Assembly: GCA_000004985.1 (NCBI GenBank)
Contig: GG738882.1
Source of the DNA: Naegleria gruberi
Lineage: Eukaryota
Length of the DNA: 64,000 nt
Strand: one strand, 5' to 3'
Below the pieces are notes generated by a model. That model worked only from the letters and a program-made list of their open reading frames with translations. It ran no database searches and was not told the origin of the DNA. Shown piece by piece: positions 6,993-55,598 of this stretch; the stretch's first letter is position 1, and every line of letters begins with the position of its first letter. The position numbers were made by a program, and so were the translations under genes.

Positions 6993-9029
6993 TTAATAGA
7001 CACGCTTGAATGGTGGAATATATCCCCACTCCTTTTCATCGAGAGTATAACTGTGGACTGGTCTATATTCAATATTGACCTTACCAGTATCAACATCCAT
7101 TGTGGTAAGAGTGTGCTTCATCCATGTAGCATCATCTCTGTCTGGGAAGTCGTCACGAGCGTGAGCACCTCTGGATTCCTTTCTGTTTTCAGCTGAAAGC
7201 ATAGTTTGTACAGCATTGATCAAAAGGTTTTGTAATTCGAGAATTTCATAAAGGTTAACATTGTAAATTGGTGACTTATCGCCCAACTTAAGGTATGGGA
7301 GCTTATCATAAGCTTCCTTAATGAGTTTACAACCAGTTTCCAAAGTTTCTTGCTTACGATAGACAGCAGCATAGTTTTGCATGACACTTTGCATTTCCTT
7401 TCTCAATTCGTGACATTTGATAGTTCCCTTATCACTATTGAAAAGCTTATCCAAACGAACAATTGATTGCATACCAGCATCAGATGGAAGAGGCTTATGC
7501 TTAGTATCCTTTGGCAAATTTTCCATGACGTACAAAGCACAAGCACGACCAAAGACGACAAGATCCAAAAGTGAGTTAGCACCCAAACGATTAGCACCGT
7601 GAACAGAAGCACAAGCAACTTCACCAGCAGCCAACAAACCCTTAACTGGATAATCTGGTTGATCTTCAGACTTCTTATAGACAACTTGACCAGTGTAAAG
7701 AGTTGGAACACCACCCATATTGTAGTGAACAGTTGGAACGACTGGAATTGGTTCCTTAGTCAAATCGACACCAGCGAAAATCTTGGCAGTTTCAGTAATA
7801 CCTGGTAATCTTTCGTGAAGTAAATCAGTTGGCAAGTGATCCAAGTGCAAGTGAATGTGATCCTTCTTTGGACCGCATCCTCTACCTTCCAAAATTTCCA
7901 TAGTCATAGCTCTACTGACAACGTCTCTTGAAGCCAAATCCTTGACACTAGGAGCATACTTTTCCATAAAACGTTCACCTTCACTATTTCTCAAGAAACC
8001 ACCTTCACCACGAGCGCCTTCTGTAATTAAACAACCAGCACCATAGATACCAGTAGGGTGGAATTGAACAAATTCCAAATCTTGATTTGGTAAACCAGCT
8101 CTAGAAACCATGGCAGTACCGTCACCAGTACAAGTGTGAGCAGAAGTACATGAACCATAAGCTCTACCATAACCTCCTGTAGCCAAAATAGTGTAGTGAG
8201 AACGGAAACGATGCATACTACTATCTTCAAGACAATAAGTCATAACACCTCTACATTCATCTCCTTCCATCAACAAGTCCAAAGCGAAATATTCAATAAA
8301 GAATTGGACGTCATATTTCAAAGCCATACCATAGTTTGTGTGGAGAAGAGCGTGACCTGTTCTATCAGCAGCAGCACAACATCTTCTAGCTTGACCACCT
8401 TTACCAAACTTGATACTTTGACCACCGAAAGCTCTTTGATAAATTTTACCTTCAGGAGTACGAGAGAAAGGAAGACCCATATGTTCCATTTCAATAACGG
8501 CTTGTGGAGCTTCTTTACACATGTAGTGAATAGCATCTTGATCACCCAACCAATCGCTACCCTTGACTGTATCATAGGCGTGATAAGTCCAGTGATCTTC
8601 TGTCATATTTCCAAGAGCAGCGTTAATACCACCTTGAGCAGCAACAGTGTGTGATCTTGTTGGGAACAACTTGGAAATACAGGCAACCTTGTATCCAGCT
8701 TTGGCCAAGTTGGCAGCACAAACGAGACCAGCACCACCAGCACCTACAACAACAGCATCATAAGTATGGTCAATTACTGGATAAACTTGTGAGAGTTGTG
8801 GTCCCTTATCGGTCATTGTTCCTTGTCTAACAGCACTATTTCCTAGCACAACCAAATTTTTGGTATTAGATGAAAAACATCTTTTAGTATTGGATGTTGT
8901 TGTGGATGTTTTAGTAGTAGAATTAATTAATGATGATGAAGATGAAAAAACAGAGTTGTTTTTTAATTGTTGTTGGATTGAAGACTTCAAAGCAGAGACT
9001 CCCTTCAACTTTCTGCAAGACTTGAGCAT
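6993..9029 (-). CDS. SDHA: Succinate dehydrogenase flavoprotein subunit, mitochondrial (with presequence)
   Basis: FAD-binding [13 protein letters not shown], covalent-FAD region [14 protein letters not shown], catalytic [21 protein letters not shown], and C-terminal ...[11 protein letters not shown]. The N-terminal region is S/T/K-rich and presequence-like. I chose the start at the ATG at 9029-9027 because of its aaaaaATG context. The ORF track extends to 9125 through a non-ATG start. Confidence 0.9.
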
Positions 9030-9875
9030 TTTTTGAGTCTGAATATTTTTTATCAAAATATTTTTAAAATTATTTTCTTGCCTGCTGCAGCCAAAAATCA
9101 TCCGAAGCCTAAAACTCCCCAGCAAAAGACAGATGTTCTGTATGAAATGGATTAGAGAAGGGACAATAACAATGATATTCAGCTTGAGTGTTTGACCGAC
9201 AACTCTAAGTTGTGTTGTCCCTTGCTAGCGATATGCTTTGTTGCGATTCTCTCTTTTGATGACTAATTCAAGCAGCTGGGCTTGAATTTACAATAACTCA
9301 AATTGAACATTAAAAAATACATCAATTCAGAGATGAATTGCATCAAGGAATGAATGTTAAGGAAATTAGAGTTGTTTGAATTAGCTTATTTTACACATTT
9401 TAAATCAATGTCCAAAATGGAAGAATAAGGCAATCAATTACGATGATTATCATAATTGGTTAAGGATAAGATCATCATTAGTATAAATATTGTCTATCAA
9501 TTCAATTCATGAAATTCAATTTCATAGCAGGCAACATGCTTTTGATTAAGGACCCACTTGCCGAACCGTTTGAATCAATCAATATTTCATTTTACCAGTT
9601 CATGAAAAGCAACTTTCTGCTCTCCGAATAGACTATGATATCAATCGACATTGGATGAATTGATGAACGTTTTGGTTTCGTAAAGACATCTTGGGTGATC
9701 ACTTTTGGAACCTTGTTACCATTCCAAATATGATGTCAAACAAAAGTTCTGTATTGTTATCTGCCACCATTGTATCTATCTTTCCAATCATGCCAGTTGA
9801 TACTTCTTTAAATACCACTGGTGATACAAGTCCAATGCATCCAACAATCAAAAAAAACAAAACACTGTGTTAACA

Positions 9876-10904
9876 ATGAAACTCTTTATGGCTCTCATCT
9901 TTTTATTCCTTGCATTGTTGGCTAACAATGGCAGATGTGCAACAGTAAATCCAATTGCATCTGTTCAGTTTAATCAAGTGATTGATGCAGCCATGACCAA
10001 TATTTTGCACAAGTCAGAAATAACAAGTGCTATCAATGATTGTAAGTAGTTGTATACTAAGTTTTATATGGAAAATATATTCGAAATTAGTTTTTACGTT
10101 TCCTGCTCCTACTTGTTATGCTTCAATTTCCTTCCCTGCCATCAATCCAATTCCTGCATCAGTTTCTCAAATTCGATTCTGCAATCTCAACTATGGCCTT
10201 TACAAAACTTTAGTAAGTAATTACAGCTCTTAAGTTTCTTATTAACCAAATTATTTGCTATATTCAATTAGGGAAATGCAATTGTTAGTGCAATCAACTC
10301 CCAATACAAACTTTCCCTCACAGCAAATTATGACGCAGTGGTCAATGTTTCAGTTTCTTATTTCAATTCATTGAAAACTGCAGTCGATTCCTCAGTGTGT
10401 GATGTTGTCATTGCAGAGACAGTATATACTGCAGAAAGAGCAAAGCTTGTAAAATATACTACTTGTGGTTATGGAAGCACCTCATATGGTTTTTTAAGAG
10501 GAGCATTGGATAATTCAACCATTAGTATTTCAAATGTAAATGATTTGAATAATCCAGCAGTCAAAATTTCAGTTGTTAAGGGATCAATTTTTGACACCTA
10601 TGTGAATCAATCATTACCATTAGCTCAAAAGGTGTATGCTTCCTATGGAGCTCAAATGCAATTGGTTGCTGATGGGGTTGTCCATGCAGTTGTGGATGAT
10701 GCAGTTGGACTTAATCAATTTCGATTGAACAATATGAAAGATTGCACTTCATGTTTTGTGAAACTATTTGGAGATGTTAGCACCTTCTCAGCTTTTACAG
10801 AACTAACAACCAAATCGAATGGAGCATTTTCAATTTTTAACACCTTTACTCTGTTAATGATGTGTACAGCAAGTCTGTTTATTAGTTTTCTTGTAATTTT
10901 ATAA
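9876..10904 (+). CDS. Secreted/surface protein with a bacterial-type solute-binding (SBP_bac_3-like) domain; exons 9876..10041, 10091..10212, 10272..10904
   Basis: Signal peptide MKLFMALIFLFLALLANNGRC. Introns 10042..10090 (GTAAGT...AATTAG) and 10213..10271 (GTAAGT...AATTAG) join three ORFs in frame. The exon-3 sequence DVVIAETVYTAERAKLVKYTTCGYGSTSYGFL...VKGSIFDTYV...LVADGVVHAVVDDAVGL resembles family-3 periplasmic binding protein motifs. The C-terminal hydrophobic tail FTLLMMCTASLFISFLVIL is GPI-signal-like. Confidence 0.5.
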
Positions 10905-10934
10905 ACATGTATTAAATGATAATTATGATCTCAA

Positions 10935-12662
10935 TTAAATATTGATTTCAACAGTTCCATTTTCCAAGTCTGCCAATAAATTCTTCATTTGACTGTCAAT
11001 GGTTGAGAGAGCAAATTGGACATGTTCGAGATTTGTGAAGGAACCACAAATTGCCAATCTCAAACAATACTTTCCACCCAAAACAGTATGACTCATGTAC
11101 ATCATACCATTTACATTAATTCTTTCAATAAGAATCTCGTTGAAACGATTTTCCTTTTGGAGAGACCATTCTGAATTGTGATATCTGAAACAGATAAGAC
11201 TGGTAACTCTTGGAGCTAGGAATTCAATGCATGATTGCTTTCTCAATTCAGTTTCGGCATATTTTGTAAGATTAATGTGATGTCTGAGATACTTTTGAAG
11301 TCCACTAATACCATAAACTCTCATAACAAGCCACAATTTCAAAGATCTGAAACGTCTACCAAGAGGCAACTGCCAATCTCTGTAATCAGTAACAAGTCCA
11401 CTACTGGATGCCTTATTTTTCAAATATTCAGGATCTAAAGACAGAGCATTCTTCAAATGTTTTCTCTCCTTGACCCAAAATGCACAACAATCAAAGTTTG
11501 TCAACATCCACTTGTGAGGATTGAATGTGAAAGAATCAGCAAATTCCAAATATTCACAATTATCACCACCAACAAAAGCTTGTCTACATTCAGGTAGCAT
11601 GAGTGATGATCCAACGAATGCAGCATCAACATGAAGGAATAATGAAAACTTTTGACAAATTGCTCCAATCTTGGATAAATCATCAATGGCAGTGCTACTT
11701 GTTGTTCCAATGGTTCCACAAACAAAGAATGGAATTAAACCATTTTCCAAATCCTGTTGAATAGTTTTTTCCAATTCATTTTCATTCATATTATAAGTGT
11801 CTGGATAGGCAGATATTTTCCTCAAATGAATAATACCAGTGACCATGCATGCCTTCTCAATAGAGCTGTGAGTTTGACTTGAAACGTAGGCCACTAACTT
11901 TCCTTGAAAATCAGCTTGATTGAATGAATCACCCATTTCATTCTTCATTTGGACACGTTTCTTTTCTTTAGCTGCTAACATTGCAACTACACCAGCTGAT
12001 GAAGCTGTATCTTGAATGGATCCTCCCTTTTCAGAAAGTGGTTGTTGAGATTTCAAATTTTGTAAAATAACTTACACCTGTTGTTTCACTTAAAAAGTGT
12101 TTTGGTAAATGGAGAGCTTTGGCCAACCAGTCCATAACAATAGTTTCCAATTCTGTGCATGCAGGTGAAGTAATCCAACTAAAACCAATGACATTGAACA
12201 TTCCTGACAAGATGTCACCAATGAGAGCAGGATATGAAAAATTGGCAGAAAAGAACTATCATTTTCAATTATTCTAATACATGTATTCCAAAAACCTACA
12301 GAATAGAAATTAGGATGTTGCCAATGAGTTACTCCCATAGTAATCTTCTCAGAAACATCTTTCAAAATATCATCAAATGATTCTCCATTAAGAGGTGCTT
12401 CATTTGGTAATAATTTTTGCAAATAACCTGGTTGTACTTGAGAACAGACTGGGTGATGAATTTTGTTTTCTTCTAAAGTATTGTTTGGATTAATTAATTG
12501 ATCATGATAATTAACAATATAATCACCAACTGTATTTAGGTGATTTTTGAAATCGGAGGCAGACCATGGATGTTGAAAATTGAGTTCTTCAAGTGTAAAT
12601 TCCGATGATGAATTGTTATTCTCTTGTGATGGGAGTGGCTGTTGATTGTTTGATGGAAGCAT
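10935..12662 (-). CDS. DDC: Aromatic-L-amino-acid (DOPA/Tyr/His-type, group II PLP) decarboxylase; exons 12662..12300, 12255..12076, 12026..10935
   Basis: Motifs HWQHPNF, SPACTELE...MDWLAKALHLP, LVAYVSSQTHSSIEKA and FNPHKWMLTNFDCCAFWVK. ORF 12090..12662 leaves the homology at a GTAGGT at 12299-12294. Introns 12256..12299 (44 nt) and 12027..12075 (49 nt, GTAAGT...GAAAAG) restore the conserved order. About 544 aa. Confidence 0.8.
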
Positions 12663-52798: not shown

Positions 52799-55598
52799 AT
52801 GGGAAATAATATTAAATCAGCCAGTAATGATCGGGAGGCCCCTACTAGGAGTTTATATGAAGAAGAGGTATCCCCATCAGCTTCATCATCAACAAATTAT
52901 CAAGACGATTTGCAGAGTTACAAGTCATATATTACACAACATCAAATTATTGATCAAATACAATTTCGATCACTTCCCGATAAGTTTTGTAGTGTGAGAA
53001 TTTTGATAATGCAAAGTGGAATGAATGGCAATACACTCATGTACGATACTCATCATGATAATAACTTTAAACAATTTAAAGCCAAATTAAATCAAAATAC
53101 AAAGGAGGTTAATGAAAGATTTAGAAAAATGCAAATGTTGAAGAGTACAAGAGCTGTCAACAAGATTAAGACCAGCTCACCATCTTTGAAACCACTATTG
53201 GGAGGTTTATCTCAAAATAATTTGAATCAATCCTTCCAATCACAAACAAATAATACTTCGAGTAATAATAATATTAATAACAAACAATCAGTGGGAATGA
53301 ACGATACTAGTATTCTAGGTGAAATATTATTTGGATCTATTCCAATACAGATACTTGGACAAAATACTAAAATTCACACTCTTTCACAGCACAAACAAAC
53401 CTGTCTCAGTAAGGTGTTCAGAGTTGGTTTGCCAGTCAGTACAATAATTAAGACAGACGTACAGAGTGATCATGGAGATGACTCTAGCTCAACATCAAAG
53501 GATATTCCACCAAATACAGAACCAAATCCAAACCCCGTTAGCACATCACCAACACCATCACCAACTGTGAGAAATAGAGCTGTCAGTATAATTCAACAAC
53601 CAAATGCAAACCAAGTATCAGCAACTGCTTATAGTCCAAACACCTTGGGTACTCGTAATAGAAGCTATTCCACATCTGTTACAGATGCCATTAGAGATAA
53701 TTTCACTGAAAAAGCAGCTGCTGCCTCTACTACCACTGAAGATACAAAGCAAGCTCACAAGAAGAAAGACAGAAAAAAGAAGCTACACAAAGATCAGGAT
53801 ATTTCATTCATGTGCAAATCTTCATTTGGAATAGCTGTCTTATTGGTTTTCCATGACTGTGGAGAAGATAAGGATGAGCTTCAAAATCCAAGTCAGTTGC
53901 AAAGACTCATATTCTCTCACTTCCCAATATTTGAACACAAACTGAGAAAATTGCTCAACTCTTGTAAAAACTCAATTCAAAACTACCTGAAGAAGAAAGT
54001 TGATGAAGCTCGAGAATCAGACAAGCTAGACGAAATTTTCAGTGGTTTTACTTTCAATATCAAATCATTCCATGGATGTCTTCAAGATTCTGAAGAAATT
54101 TCTAATGCATCCATAGATTTCAACAAGTTTATTATCTCTTTCCTACATGCGCCTCGTTTCAATGTAAGTGTCTGATATGTATTTATTTTCTCACTTATCT
54201 TTTTAGGAACCAATTTGGCAATCACAATCACTTTTGCCTCTTGAAAAATCTAACAATTTCTCTACCTTTTTAACTGATCTTGCCTTGCTAACGAGGAAAG
54301 ACGAACAACATCTTTCATTCTTTTCTCTAGTGTTGACTACCATTTTATCAAACCACCTTTCATGGGTTTCACAATTCATACAATCTGAAAGGAGTGACTG
54401 TGATGATAATCCTTCACTACTCATTCAGAAATATCTAAAATCTCTGTATGGAAGTGGCTACCTTCCAACATTGACATCTGGTGAACAAGACAAGAAAGGT
54501 CTGAAAAAGTTTTGTAAAATAATTGTTGTTGGAAGTAATAACAAAGATATTAGATATTGTATATCCATGATTACGTTCCTCCTTCAATCAACTCTACTTT
54601 TAGAAAAAGAATTTTCCATTGACAAGCCTCAACAATCCTCCAATCTCGATTCTAAATTCCTTCCAGAAACTCTTTTAACCCTAACTCCAATGCAATTTGT
54701 TGAAATGAAACCTCCACTTAAAACTAAGCCACGACAAAAACACTCCCACGACACAACGAATCCAAATATAGCTATTCATACAATAGAGAGTGATTCAGAT
54801 GAAGATTCTGAATATCATATCAAACCTGTAGTTTTAGTTCCAAAACCTAATTTCACACTTGCAGCTTATGACAATAACGTTGAGGAAATGAATTTGAAAA
54901 TGAAATTCAACAAGTTTGGAAATTCACTTTTTGCTGACGTTTGTACGTGGTATTGTGGTGGATTCGTAATATCTGGCTTGCCTAGGTATGTCAATTTCCA
55001 AAAGGAGCTCATAGAAGACTTGGAATTCATTCAAACAGAAAGCATTGATGGAGATCCAAGATTACCAGATGTAGCCAGTTGCATTATAATTGATATTGAA
55101 GGAAGGTCTTGCAATGTTGTAACGAGTAAGCACAAGACAGCTAAATTCGAAGAAGGTCATAACTCTAGCATAATCTCCAAGTTATTGCACGAACTTTTAT
55201 TCCTTAGATCAGTAGATCAGACATCAGAAGGTGAAAAAGCATGTGAGCAGATATTTAAAGATACACTTTATGGACTAGTTCTAAAGACCAAGCTTATGTT
55301 TTCAATTGTGGACTCGATAGATTCGGAAACGAATAGAATTATACCAACAAACGCCGTTCATTGGCGCTCTGATTCCAAACAAACACCAACAAAGAGTTTA
55401 TCAGAACAACTCAAAAAGATACTTGTATCCAAACCTAAGAAGAATGGATCTGAGAGAATCACCTACGAGCAATTGTCTCATCTATTACATGTTAATATTT
55501 CAGACATACCCTTACTCATGTCCATTGCCAGTGCTTTCCGTAGTGATATTTCAAAGAAGGTCATTCCACATAAAGTGTCAAAAAAGAAAAAACGATAA
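52799..55598 (+). CDS. FNIP: Folliculin-interacting protein (FNIP/Lst4-like); exons 52799..54163 and 54207..55598, intron 54164..54206 (43 nt, GTAAGT...TTTTTAG)
   Basis: VRILIMQSGMNG and DTSILGEILFGSIPIQILGQNTKIHTLSQHKQTCLSKVF match the FNIP N-terminal block ([22 protein letters not shown]...SKVF). The phase-0 splice APRFN|EPIWQSQ joins the two ORFs. About 919 aa. Confidence 0.6.

What the first reader, a model, noticed from the sequence alone, without database searches (positions are those of the whole stretch)
9876..10904. Intron-containing gene for a secreted bacterial-type solute-binding (SBP_bac_3-like) domain with a GPI-like tail
The gene has a signal peptide. Two GTAAGT...AATTAG introns give a mature domain whose motifs (AETVYTAERAKLVKY..., VKGSIFDTYV..., VADGVVHAVVDDAVGL) follow the order of family-3 periplasmic amino-acid-binding proteins. 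There is no channel or 7TM module, and the C-terminus is a short hydrophobic tail. This is either an ancient bacterial acquisition that has been fully domesticated with introns, or a free-standing relative of the iGluR/GPCR ligand-binding domain acting as a surface nutrient or quorum sensor.
Basis: partly seen in the sequence, partly recalled or inferred. Interest (0 to 1): 0.55.

Follow-up and report, generated by a model that had tools for sequence, protein, structure and literature searches.

The report
Surface amino-acid-binding-type protein gene, Naegleria
This is a real three-exon gene of the amoeba Naegleria gruberi, apparently missing from the deposited protein set, that encodes a secreted, probably lipid-anchored protein with the two-lobed "Venus flytrap" fold of bacterial amino-acid-binding proteins, one member of an uncharacterised amoeba gene family whose fold is circularly rearranged.

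Summary
The window is Naegleria gruberi NEG-M. Exons 9876-10041, 10091-10212 and 10272-10904 join in frame across two short GTAAGT...AATTAG introns of 49 and 59 nt to give 306 aa. The product has a signal peptide, a solute-binding-protein (SBP) core and a GPI-signal-like tail.

The arginine and aspartate that hold an amino acid's carboxylate and amine are conserved (R152, D239). That supports, but does not prove, an amino-acid-like ligand.

- It is one member of a multigene family, not a lone acquisition.
- The closest homologues checked are intronless and not syntenic.
- The fold is circularly permuted: the canonical C-terminal helix pair sits at the N-terminus.

Distant members are fused to protein kinases, which favours a sensing role. 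Function, GPI attachment, splicing and evolutionary origin remain untested. Interest is moderate.

The parts
9876..10041 (+). Exon 1 (aa 1-55 plus the first base of codon 56): start codon, signal peptide, N-terminal helix pair
   Evidence: It starts at the first ATG and the frame is open up to the GTAAGT donor at 10042. The product aligns with the N-termini of family members.
9876..9938 (+). Predicted signal peptide (aa 1-21, MKLFMALIFLFLALLANNGRC, with cleavage before A22)
   Evidence: Mean hydropathy is 2.6 over aa 1-15, and small residues occupy positions -3 and -1. This is by inspection only; no predictor was run.
9957..10040 (+). N-terminal helix-turn-helix segment (aa 28-55, continuing to aa 59 in exon 2). 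It is the equivalent of the C-terminal helix pair of canonical SBP_bac_3 proteins, which makes the fold a circular permutation.
   Evidence: In the model of homologue P0006 the helices H26-40 and H43-53 have pLDDT 95-98, and no helix follows the last strand. The Naegleria-type segment profile matches the distant-member segment profile by hhalign at 93% probability, E 2.7e-7. The distant-member profile hits the C-terminal helices of solved binding proteins at E down to 2.9e-11. An in-silico un-permutation test supports the same reading.
10042..10090 (+). Intron 1, 49 nt, GTAAGT...AAATTAG, phase 1
   Evidence: Removing it restores the frame. L001 carries about 5 extra nt here. Homologues are collinear across the junction.
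10091..10212 (+). Exon 2 (aa 56-96): the FPxPxC loop, conserved cysteines C64 and C86, and the first strand and helix of lobe 1
   Evidence: It aligns with the family motifs FPVPxC and CYE. The only difference from L001 here is one conservative substitution, V to I.
10213..10271 (+). Intron 2, 59 nt, GTAAGT...CAATTAG, phase 0
   Evidence: Removing it restores the frame. L001 has an 8-nt deletion inside it.
10272..10904 (+). Exon 3 (aa 97-306 plus the stop): most of the binding-protein core and the C-terminal tail
   Evidence: The AF2 model of this product has pLDDT 92.2. Foldseek matches it to AncCDT-1 and to Trp-, Gln- and Arg-binding proteins at E about 1e-11. TIGR01096 matches at E 3.2e-6 over aa 98-252.
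10168..10799 (+). Two-lobed solute-binding core (aa about 82-272, interrupted by intron 2)
10437..10439 (+). Codon of R152, the equivalent of GlnBP R75 and LAO R77, which bind the ligand's alpha-carboxylate
   Evidence: It is invariant in 26 of 26 aligned family members.
10698..10700 (+). Codon of D239, the equivalent of GlnBP D157 and LAO D161, which bind the ligand's alpha-ammonium group
   Evidence: The position is D or E in 23 of 26 family members.
10815..10901 (+). GPI-attachment-signal-like C-terminus (aa 278-306): S-N-G-A small residues, an 8-aa spacer, then 17 hydrophobic residues to the stop
   Evidence: Mean hydropathy of the tail is 2.56 and there is no charged residue in the last 29 aa. 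Most complete eukaryotic family members show the same pattern, whereas the prokaryotic relatives end in a membrane span followed by basic residues.

Best explanation
**What is shown.** The locus is a spliced Naegleria gruberi gene. Its 306-aa product enters the secretory pathway and folds into a two-lobed, type-II periplasmic-binding-protein (Venus flytrap) domain of the polar-amino-acid-binding kind (SBP_bac_3 superfamily). Six conserved cysteines fit an extracellular, disulfide-bonded protein. The domain is a circular permutant: the helix-turn-helix that ends canonical proteins comes first. The chain then runs through both lobes and stops right after the last lobe-1 strand, where a GPI-signal-like tail begins.

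**What is inferred.** The tail is exchanged for a GPI anchor, so the domain sits on the outer face of the plasma membrane. A small ligand carrying an alpha-amino-acid-like carboxylate and amine is clamped between the lobes by R152 and D239. Lobe closure is then read by a membrane partner, either a co-receptor for chemosensing or feeding decisions or a transporter or endocytic route for scavenging. Kinase-fused relatives in other amoebae suggest that the ancestral use of this ectodomain is signalling. The exact ligand is unknown, and one canonical contact (GlnBP T70) is Val in this paralogue.
For: - **Organism:** the neighbouring SdhA ORF is identical to N. gruberi XP_002674784.1.
- **Gene model:**
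- **Family:** 90 cluster representatives at E<=1e-3 and 38 at E<=1e-10. These are mostly about 280-340 aa with the match at the same position. Named members come from N. gruberi, N. fowleri, N. lovaniensis, Willaertia magna, Heterolobosea sp. BB2 and Nematostelium gracile.
- **Homology to binding proteins:** TIGR01096 at E 3.2e-6. The family profile matches AncCDT-1 at 2e-30 and GlnBP, ArgBP, GluR0 and GluN1 LBDs at 1e-15 to 4e-9. 17 of 26 members hit PF00497 at E<=0.01, best 5e-35.
- **Binding residues:** R152 is invariant, D239 is D/E in 23 of 26, F127 is aromatic in 24 of 26, and the G-S/T motif is present.
- **Permutation:**
- **Tail pattern across the family:**
- **Kinase fusions:** P0060 and P0089 have the ectodomain, a membrane span and a PK_Tyr_Ser-Thr domain (E 2e-55 and 1e-71).
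Against: - There is no expression or splicing data.
- The exact product is absent from the 15-billion-protein collection, and no deposited N. gruberi model covers it.
- The signal peptide and GPI signal were judged by eye, without a predictor.
- The single sequence is below Pfam's cut-off.
- V147 replaces the Thr that contacts the carboxylate in GlnBP and iGluRs, and the column is variable across the family (T in 12 of 26). Ligands may therefore differ between paralogues, or binding may be lost in some.
- The Naegleria-type N-terminal segment alone gives no hit to solved structures, and un-permuting the Naegleria-like subset alone adds little score. For this gene the permutation rests on transitive homology plus the predicted secondary structure, not on a 3D superposition.
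- The full-length window protein could not be modelled. Only exon 3 and a homologue 44% identical over the exon-3 region were modelled.
Confidence: 0.6

Rival explanations
1. It is a surface-coat, adhesion or antigen family. On this reading the flytrap fold is only a scaffold, and the expanded, fast-diverging, GPI-anchored and glycosylated paralogues serve as cell-surface coat or attachment proteins rather than small-molecule receptors.
Against: The carboxylate-binding Arg is invariant and the amine-binding Asp nearly so across very divergent members, which argues for a retained ligand site. Kinase-fused relatives point to signalling.
Confidence: 0.2
2. It is an enzyme derived from a binding protein, like cyclohexadienyl dehydratase, and acts on an extracellular substrate.
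For: Among the top sequence and fold matches are the reconstructed ancestors AncCDT-1 and AncCDT-3 and several cyclohexadienyl dehydratases.
Against: AncCDT-1 is described in its PDB entry as an amino-acid-binding protein, a precursor of the enzyme. Plain Gln-, Arg-, Glu-, Cys- and Trp-binding proteins score equally well. The binding-type Arg/Asp pair is kept. The catalytic residues of the dehydratase were not examined here.
Confidence: 0.05
3. It is not a functional gene, but a decaying paralogue or a mis-joined set of ORFs, which would explain its absence from the deposited annotation.
For: No deposited protein model was found. It has two introns where the closest homologues checked have none. 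V147 sits at a canonical contact position.
Against: The spliced frame is intact over 306 codons, and all six family cysteines, R152, D239, the signal peptide and the tail are kept. Both introns have consensus ends and typical lengths for this window. The roughly 98%-identical second strain keeps the frame, with indels only in the introns and exon changes split 3 synonymous to 3 conservative. The AF2 model is confident.
Confidence: 0.08
4. It is bacterial contamination or a very recent horizontal transfer.
For: The domain type is predominantly prokaryotic.
Against: The gene carries spliceosomal introns and has the AT-rich composition of the rest of the window. It is flanked by N. gruberi nuclear genes, has eukaryote-type signal and GPI-like ends, and has paralogues and homologues across several heterolobosean genera. 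No prokaryotic sequence is closer than about 30-35% identity.
Confidence: 0.02

Closest known systems
Bacterial and archaeal polar-amino-acid-binding proteins of ABC importers (Pfam PF00497 SBP_bac_3: GlnBP, HisJ/LAO, ArtJ, ArgBP, the reconstructed AncCDT-1 and AncQR)
   Different: It is eukaryotic, spliced and probably GPI-anchored, with six conserved cysteines. No ABC permease or ATPase partner lies nearby. The order of elements is circularly permuted, with the canonical C-terminal helix pair at the N-terminus. The single sequence falls below the Pfam gathering score.
Ligand-binding domains of ionotropic glutamate receptors (S1S2; Pfam Lig_chan-Glu_bd), including prokaryotic GluR0 and plant GLRs
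   Different: No channel is inserted between the two halves, and there are no membrane helices other than the cleavable tail. The sequence is more distant than to the ABC-type binding proteins. Only 4 of 26 family members, not including this one, touch the Lig_chan-Glu_bd model.
PfVFT1 (Plasmodium falciparum PF3D7_0606800, PDB 5jkq), a free-standing secreted Venus-flytrap protein of a protist
   Same: [quoted passage not shown]
   Different: PfVFT1 is reported to have no recognisable membrane anchor and is probably not GPI-anchored. No sequence relationship was tested here. The Naegleria family is a large paralogue set.
Sensor proteins that use SBP_bac_3-type flytrap domains (BvgS and EvgS, histidine-kinase sensor domains such as 3h7m, and the kinase-fused eukaryotic relatives P0060 and P0089 found here)
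   Different: The window protein has no cytoplasmic part at all. Any signalling would need a separate membrane partner.

Membership tests
Pfam PF00497 SBP_bac_3 (family-3 extracellular solute-binding proteins) | Match to the family HMM at or above the curated gathering score | tested here: not met
   The window protein scores 16.6 bits (E 0.0068) against a cut-off of 26.4, and only aa 124-163 match. 17 of 26 aligned family members match at E<=0.01, best 5.2e-35. UniProt's automatic name for the N. fowleri and N. lovaniensis homologues is 'Solute-binding protein family 3/N-terminal domain-containing protein'.
Pfam PF00497 SBP_bac_3 (superfamily level) | Significant profile-level homology to solved members | tested here: met
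   The family profile gives E 2e-30 against AncCDT-1 and 316 PDB sequences at E<=1e-3, nearly all amino-acid-binding proteins or iGluR LBDs. TIGR01096 matches the single sequence at E 3.2e-6.
Type-II periplasmic-binding-protein (Venus flytrap) fold | Two alpha/beta lobes joined by two crossover strands, with a cleft between them | tested here: met
Polar-amino-acid-binding subgroup | Arg that binds the alpha-carboxylate, Asp that binds the alpha-ammonium, and Thr/Ser five residues before the Arg | tested here: inconclusive
   R152 is invariant and D239 is conserved, but the Thr position is V147 in this protein (T in 12 of 26 members).
Pfam PF00497 SBP_bac_3 | Canonical order of elements, ending in a helix-turn-helix that packs on lobe 1 | tested here: not met
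   No helices follow the last strand, and two helices precede the first strand. The N-terminal segment is homologous to the canonical C-terminal helices. Un-permuting the alignment yields one continuous match to the end of GlnBP and LAO and adds about 15 bits.
ABC-importer substrate-binding protein (functional class) | Genomic or physical coupling to an ABC permease and ATPase | tested here: not met
   The neighbours are SdhA and a pyridoxal-dependent decarboxylase on the opposite strand. The N. fowleri homologue lies between a PNP_UDP_1-domain gene (with catalase beyond it) and an unannotated gene. Gene adjacency is weak evidence in a eukaryote.
Ionotropic glutamate receptor | Ligand-binding domain split by a pore-forming membrane module | tested here: not met
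   The domain is continuous, the only hydrophobic stretches are the signal peptide and the C-terminal tail, and the gene ends 30 nt before the next gene.
GPI-anchored proteins | N-terminal signal peptide plus a C-terminal signal: a small omega, omega+1, omega+2 triplet, a short spacer, and a hydrophobic end with no cytoplasmic residues | tested here: met
   The tail reads N279-G-A, then an 8-aa spacer, then 17 hydrophobic residues to the stop. The same pattern is seen in most complete eukaryotic members. This was by inspection, not with a trained predictor.
GPI-anchored proteins | Actual lipid attachment (PI-PLC release, mass spectrometry) | not testable with these tools
   This needs experiment.
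Cyclohexadienyl dehydratase | Catalytic residues of the dehydratase active site | not tested
   Only overall similarity was seen. No residue-level comparison was made.

The most novel reading that the evidence does not exclude
Heterolobosean amoebae, including the pathogen N. fowleri, and at least one amoebozoan would carry a previously undescribed class of cell-surface chemoreceptors. These are built from a circularly permuted amino-acid-binding flytrap domain and exist both as GPI-anchored free ectodomains and as receptor kinases. On this reading the GPI forms act as ligand-loaded co-receptors, much as bacterial binding proteins dock onto chemoreceptors, and the family sets how the amoebae sense amino acids released by prey or host tissue. 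The permuted module would have been carved out of a prokaryotic tandem binding-domain protein, giving a route to eukaryotic amino-acid sensing that is independent of iGluRs and class-C GPCRs.
Probability: 0.25. Interest if true: 0.7.

Novelty: new variant of a known kind. Interest (0 to 1): 0.45.

Why it matters
The binding-protein or flytrap fold is the module from which glutamate receptors and class-C GPCRs are built, so free-standing eukaryotic versions bear on how such sensors arose. This locus points to an expanded, uncharacterised family of surface proteins in Naegleria, including the brain-eating N. fowleri. The family has an apparently intact amino-acid-type pocket, a natural circular permutation of the fold and kinase-fused relatives.

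If the proteins really are exposed on the surface, they are candidates for the unknown receptors behind amoeboid chemotaxis towards bacteria and tissue. They could also serve as antigens; the analogous Plasmodium PfVFT1 is being pursued as a vaccine target. I found no description of a natural circular permutant of this fold in three full-text literature searches. Engineered binding-protein biosensors are a field where such a permutant could be of interest.

On the practical side, this gene appears to be missing from the deposited N. gruberi protein set.

Tried and rejected
- **Word-indexed protein search.** The full protein and the family alignment returned only a 188-aa metagenome ORF and one other protein. 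The tool missed the family that the exhaustive HMMER search then found.
- **Spliced protein as input.** I used the exon-3 product and the full-length homologue P0006 instead.
- **AFDB Foldseek.** The afdb50 library was unavailable.
- **Synteny.** The N. fowleri homologue P0005 is intronless and sits among unrelated genes, and P0006 likewise. No positional orthologue was found.
- **Naegleria-only N-terminal profile.** A search against PDB gave nothing relevant. Un-permuting only the 17 Naegleria-like sequences adds just +0.5 bits for GlnBP and +6 for LAO. For this gene the permutation claim therefore rests on transitive homology through more distant members.
- **Donor lineage.** Standalone permuted prokaryote-like proteins exist (P0052, P0081, and a Kariarchaeaceae MAG fragment). 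The Poseidoniales (Marine Group II) loci recovered with them are ORFs of about 1050 aa in canonical order. Their core scores against the eukaryote-only profile (52-70 bits) overlap those of bacteria (43-61 bits). The origin is unresolved, and an Asgard link is only a lead.
- **Literature.** I found no paper on Naegleria solute-binding proteins or on natural permutants of this fold. The Naegleria pangenome paper mentions GPI proteins only in passing.
- **Other checks.** There is no paralogue elsewhere in the window. Contamination and recent transfer were rejected because of the introns, the composition and the flanking nuclear genes.
Full report
**Organism and setting.** The window has 32-37% G+C throughout. 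The ORF just upstream on the minus strand (6993-9125), read from MLKSCRKL, is identical over 678 aa to succinate dehydrogenase flavoprotein XP_002674784.1 / EFC42040.1 of Naegleria gruberi NEG-M, which lies on a 381,539-bp contig. Just downstream on the minus strand is a pyridoxal-dependent (aromatic amino acid) decarboxylase (10935-12056 and further exons). The finding is therefore a compact, stand-alone nuclear gene of a heterolobosean amoeboflagellate, about 750 nt from the SdhA start and 30 nt from the decarboxylase stop.

**The observation.** The ATG is at 9876. GTAAGT donors sit at 10042 and 10213, and AATTAG acceptors end at 10090 and 10271. Joining 9876-10041, 10091-10212 and 10272-10904 gives 921 nt, or 306 codons with no internal stop. 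All three quoted motifs are in exon 3. No ORF longer than 53 aa lies on the opposite strand.

Three independent lines support the splicing.
- In a 26-sequence alignment, the spliced product is collinear with homologues through both junctions. For example, SAINDFFTFPAPTC aligns with YITTVVGFPVPLC, and YKTLGNAIVSAINSQY with YKEVGKRIVDAFNTQY. The two close homologues whose loci I inspected, N. fowleri P0005 and metagenomic P0006, are single uninterrupted ORFs of 313 and 305 aa.
- A 2,516-bp ENA metagenome contig (L001) from a second strain about 98% identical covers part of intron 1 through to the neighbouring gene. Its only indels lie inside the two predicted introns, about 5 extra nt in intron 1 and an 8-nt deletion in intron 2. 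Neither is a multiple of three. The exons carry six substitutions, three synonymous and three conservative.
- Introns of 43-59 nt with GTAAGT...TAG that join long open frames recur in this window, for example 12075-12027, 16409-16359, 48287-48237 and 54164-54206. The GTAAGT hexamer is depleted overall, at 9 and 12 copies against about 22 expected per strand.

There are no expression data, so splicing is inferred, though strongly.

**What the protein is.** On its own the sequence only grazes the databases.
- Pfam SBP_bac_3 gives E 0.0068 and 16.6 bits against a 26.4-bit cut-off.
- NCBIfam TIGR01096, the Lys/Arg/Orn-binding protein model, gives E 3.2e-6 over aa 98-252.
- PDB phmmer against AncCDT-1 gives E 0.024.
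- The word-indexed search found only the exon-3 ORF of L001.
- The exact product is not in the 15-billion-sequence collection, so the deposited N. gruberi annotation seems to lack this gene.

The exhaustive HMMER search with the exon-3 product changed the picture. It returned 90 cluster representatives at E<=1e-3 and 38 at E<=1e-10. Most are 280-340 aa with the match beginning near residue 100, exactly as in the spliced model. Named members are N. gruberi EFC43451.1 and EFC39018.1, N. fowleri KAF0984982.1, N. lovaniensis KAG2378881.1, Willaertia magna KAL9653165.1, transcripts of Heterolobosea sp. BB2, and a Nematostelium gracile (Amoebozoa) protein. UniProt's automatic label for two of them is 'Solute-binding protein family 3/N-terminal domain-containing protein'.

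All share one layout:
- a signal peptide;
- an FxQAIDAA helix pair;
- an FPVPxC loop;
- the binding-protein core;
- a CxxC motif;
- a run of small residues;
- a hydrophobic end.

Six cysteines are conserved (C64, C86, C139, C161, C254 and C257 in this protein).

The family profile hits solved amino-acid-binding proteins decisively: AncCDT-1 at 2e-30, AncQR at 1e-25, and Glu-, Gln-, Arg- and Cys-binding proteins at 1e-21 to 1e-12. It hits cyanobacterial GluR0 at about 1e-12 and NMDA-receptor GluN1 ligand-binding domains at about 4e-9. 17 of 26 members hit PF00497 individually at E<=0.01.

**Binding site.** I aligned E. coli GlnBP to the family. R75, the alpha-carboxylate clamp, falls on R152, which is invariant in 26 of 26. 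D157, which binds the alpha-ammonium, falls on D239, which is D or E in 23 of 26. F50 falls on F127, aromatic in 24 of 26. The lobe-2 G-T/S loop is kept as KGS. T70 corresponds to V147 here and is Thr in only 12 of 26 members. Side-chain-specific positions vary. This is the signature of a family that still binds amino-acid-like ligands but with different specificities. It is an inference, not a measurement.

Canonical family-3 proteins end with a helix-turn-helix of about 30 aa that packs on lobe 1. In this family nothing of the kind follows the last strand, and the chain goes straight into the tail. Instead, two confidently modelled helices (H26-40 and H43-53 in P0006, pLDDT 95-98) precede the first strand.

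- A 34-column profile of the N-terminal segment from 35 family members, searched against all PDB sequences, returns almost only amino-acid-binding proteins, always at their extreme C-terminus, with E 1.9e-5, 2.3e-5 and 4.6e-4.
- The signal comes from the more distant members that retain a G-x-Y...W-F motif. Their profile alone reaches E 2.9e-11, with more than 45 binding proteins hit at residues of about 195-255.
- The Naegleria/Willaertia-type segment alone finds nothing. It does align in register with the distant-member segment by profile-profile comparison, at probability 93% and E 2.7e-7.
- Moving the N-terminal columns of the family alignment to the C-terminus turns a two-piece HMMER match into one continuous match reaching residue 220 of 226 in GlnBP and 230 of 238 in LAO. 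The scores rise from 54.3 to 68.9 bits and from 30.7 to 45.6 bits. With the segment columns reversed there is no gain, and 20 column shuffles give no mean gain (largest single increase about 6 bits, for GlnBP).
- With only the 17 Naegleria-like sequences the gain is small.

I could not superpose coordinates. For this particular gene, then, the permutation is well supported but indirect.

Tandem binding-domain proteins offer an obvious origin, because in them the C-terminal helices of one domain directly precede the next domain. Such tandem proteins appear among the bacterial hits and in ORFs of about 1050 aa in Poseidoniales archaea. Stand-alone permuted versions with a membrane-span-plus-basic-tail anchor also occur on prokaryote-like contigs (P0052, P0081). 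A closely similar fragment is assigned to a Kariarchaeaceae MAG. Whether the eukaryotic family descends from these could not be decided, because the profile scores overlap.

**Ends of the protein.** The N-terminus has the n/h/c pattern of a signal peptide. The C-terminus reads TTKS-N-G-A-FSIFNTFT-LLMMCTASLFISFLVIL-stop: small residues suited to an omega site, a spacer, then 17 hydrophobic residues, with no charged residue in the final 29. Most complete eukaryotic members end the same way, with no cytoplasmic residues, whereas the prokaryotic relatives end in ...RRKK or ...RKMRN. This is the classical GPI-attachment signal, but attachment itself is untested.

**How it probably works.**
- Shown: it is a secreted flytrap domain of the amino-acid-binding kind with the backbone-binding Arg/Asp pair.
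- Inferred: it is GPI-anchored on the cell surface, captures an amino-acid-like ligand by lobe closure, and hands the signal or the ligand to a membrane partner.

A sensing role is favoured because relatives of the same ectodomain are fused, through a membrane span, to protein kinase domains (P0060, and P0089 from Nematostelium; PK_Tyr_Ser-Thr at E 2e-55 and 1e-71). The same fold also serves as the sensor in BvgS-type kinases. Eukaryotes are not known to run binding-protein-dependent ABC importers (my own knowledge), and no such partner lies nearby.

The rivals are a coat or adhesion family that uses the fold as a scaffold (about 0.2), a binding-protein-derived enzyme (about 0.05), a non-functional paralogue (about 0.08), and contamination or recent transfer (about 0.02).

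**Comparison with the known, and novelty.**
- It works like, and is homologous to, SBP_bac_3 amino-acid-binding proteins. It fails two membership features, the Pfam score for the single sequence and the canonical element order, and it lacks the transporter context.
- It is not an iGluR, because no channel is present.
- Its nearest eukaryotic analogue in concept is PfVFT1, a secreted, membrane-associated flytrap protein of unknown ligand (PMC13199436).
- Databases already tag some homologues automatically. I found no paper describing the family, its GPI-type architecture, its kinase-fused relatives or the permutation.

I therefore rate it a new variant of a known kind. Interest is moderate (0.45): the fold and its use as a sensor are familiar, but a permuted, GPI-type, expanded family in Naegleria, including N. 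fowleri, is unreported and experimentally tractable.

Noticed in passing
window 6993-9125 (-): This ORF encodes succinate dehydrogenase flavoprotein subunit. Read from MLKSCRKL it is identical to N. gruberi XP_002674784.1, which is what identifies the organism.
   Followed up: yes
window 10935-12056 (-) and upstream exon; intron about 12027-12075: The neighbouring gene is a pyridoxal-dependent (aromatic amino acid) decarboxylase. It carries a 49-nt GTAAGT...AAAAG/TAG-type intron, and its stop lies only 30 nt from the stop of the gene under study (convergent arrangement).
   Followed up: partly
L001 (ENA ERZ929261, 2,516 bp): A metagenome contig about 98% identical to window 10080-12600 shows that a second N. 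gruberi-like strain is present in an environmental assembly. Prokaryote-style gene calling there split the genes at their introns.
   Followed up: partly
P0004 = N. gruberi EFC43451.1 (462 aa): This annotated paralogue contains two nearly identical copies of the domain in tandem, and the first copy lacks a signal peptide. It is either a real tandem-domain protein or two neighbouring genes merged in the gene model.
   Followed up: no
P0060 (Logan assembly, 667 aa); P0089 (Nematostelium gracile transcript, 540 aa): These are receptor-kinase architectures: the same SBP-like ectodomain, one membrane span and a cytoplasmic Tyr/Ser-Thr-type kinase domain.
   Followed up: partly
P0032 (557 aa): In this protein an N-terminal region that looks like part of an ABC transporter (membrane helices plus the beginning of an ATPase) is fused to a complete family domain. 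Pfam found nothing significant. It may be a gene-model fusion.
   Followed up: no
L004-L026 (Candidatus Poseidoniales / Marine Group II archaeal MAGs); L017 (Kariarchaeota MAG); L002 and L003: Relatives of the prokaryote-like permuted proteins P0052 and P0081 in Marine Group II archaea lie inside ORFs of about 1050 aa with binding domains in canonical order. Stand-alone permuted versions sit on short prokaryote-like contigs, and a similar fragment is assigned to an Asgard (Kariarchaeaceae) MAG.
   Followed up: partly
L043 8001-8942 (N. fowleri VFQX01000001.1) and L045 331-1248: The closest full-length homologues checked are intronless, whereas the window gene has two introns. This implies intron gain in this paralogue or loss in the others.
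   Followed up: no
window-wide: The hexamer GTAAGT is about two-fold under-represented on both strands (9 and 12 copies against about 22 expected). Where it does occur, it often borders open reading frames that can be joined by removing 43-59 nt.
   Followed up: partly
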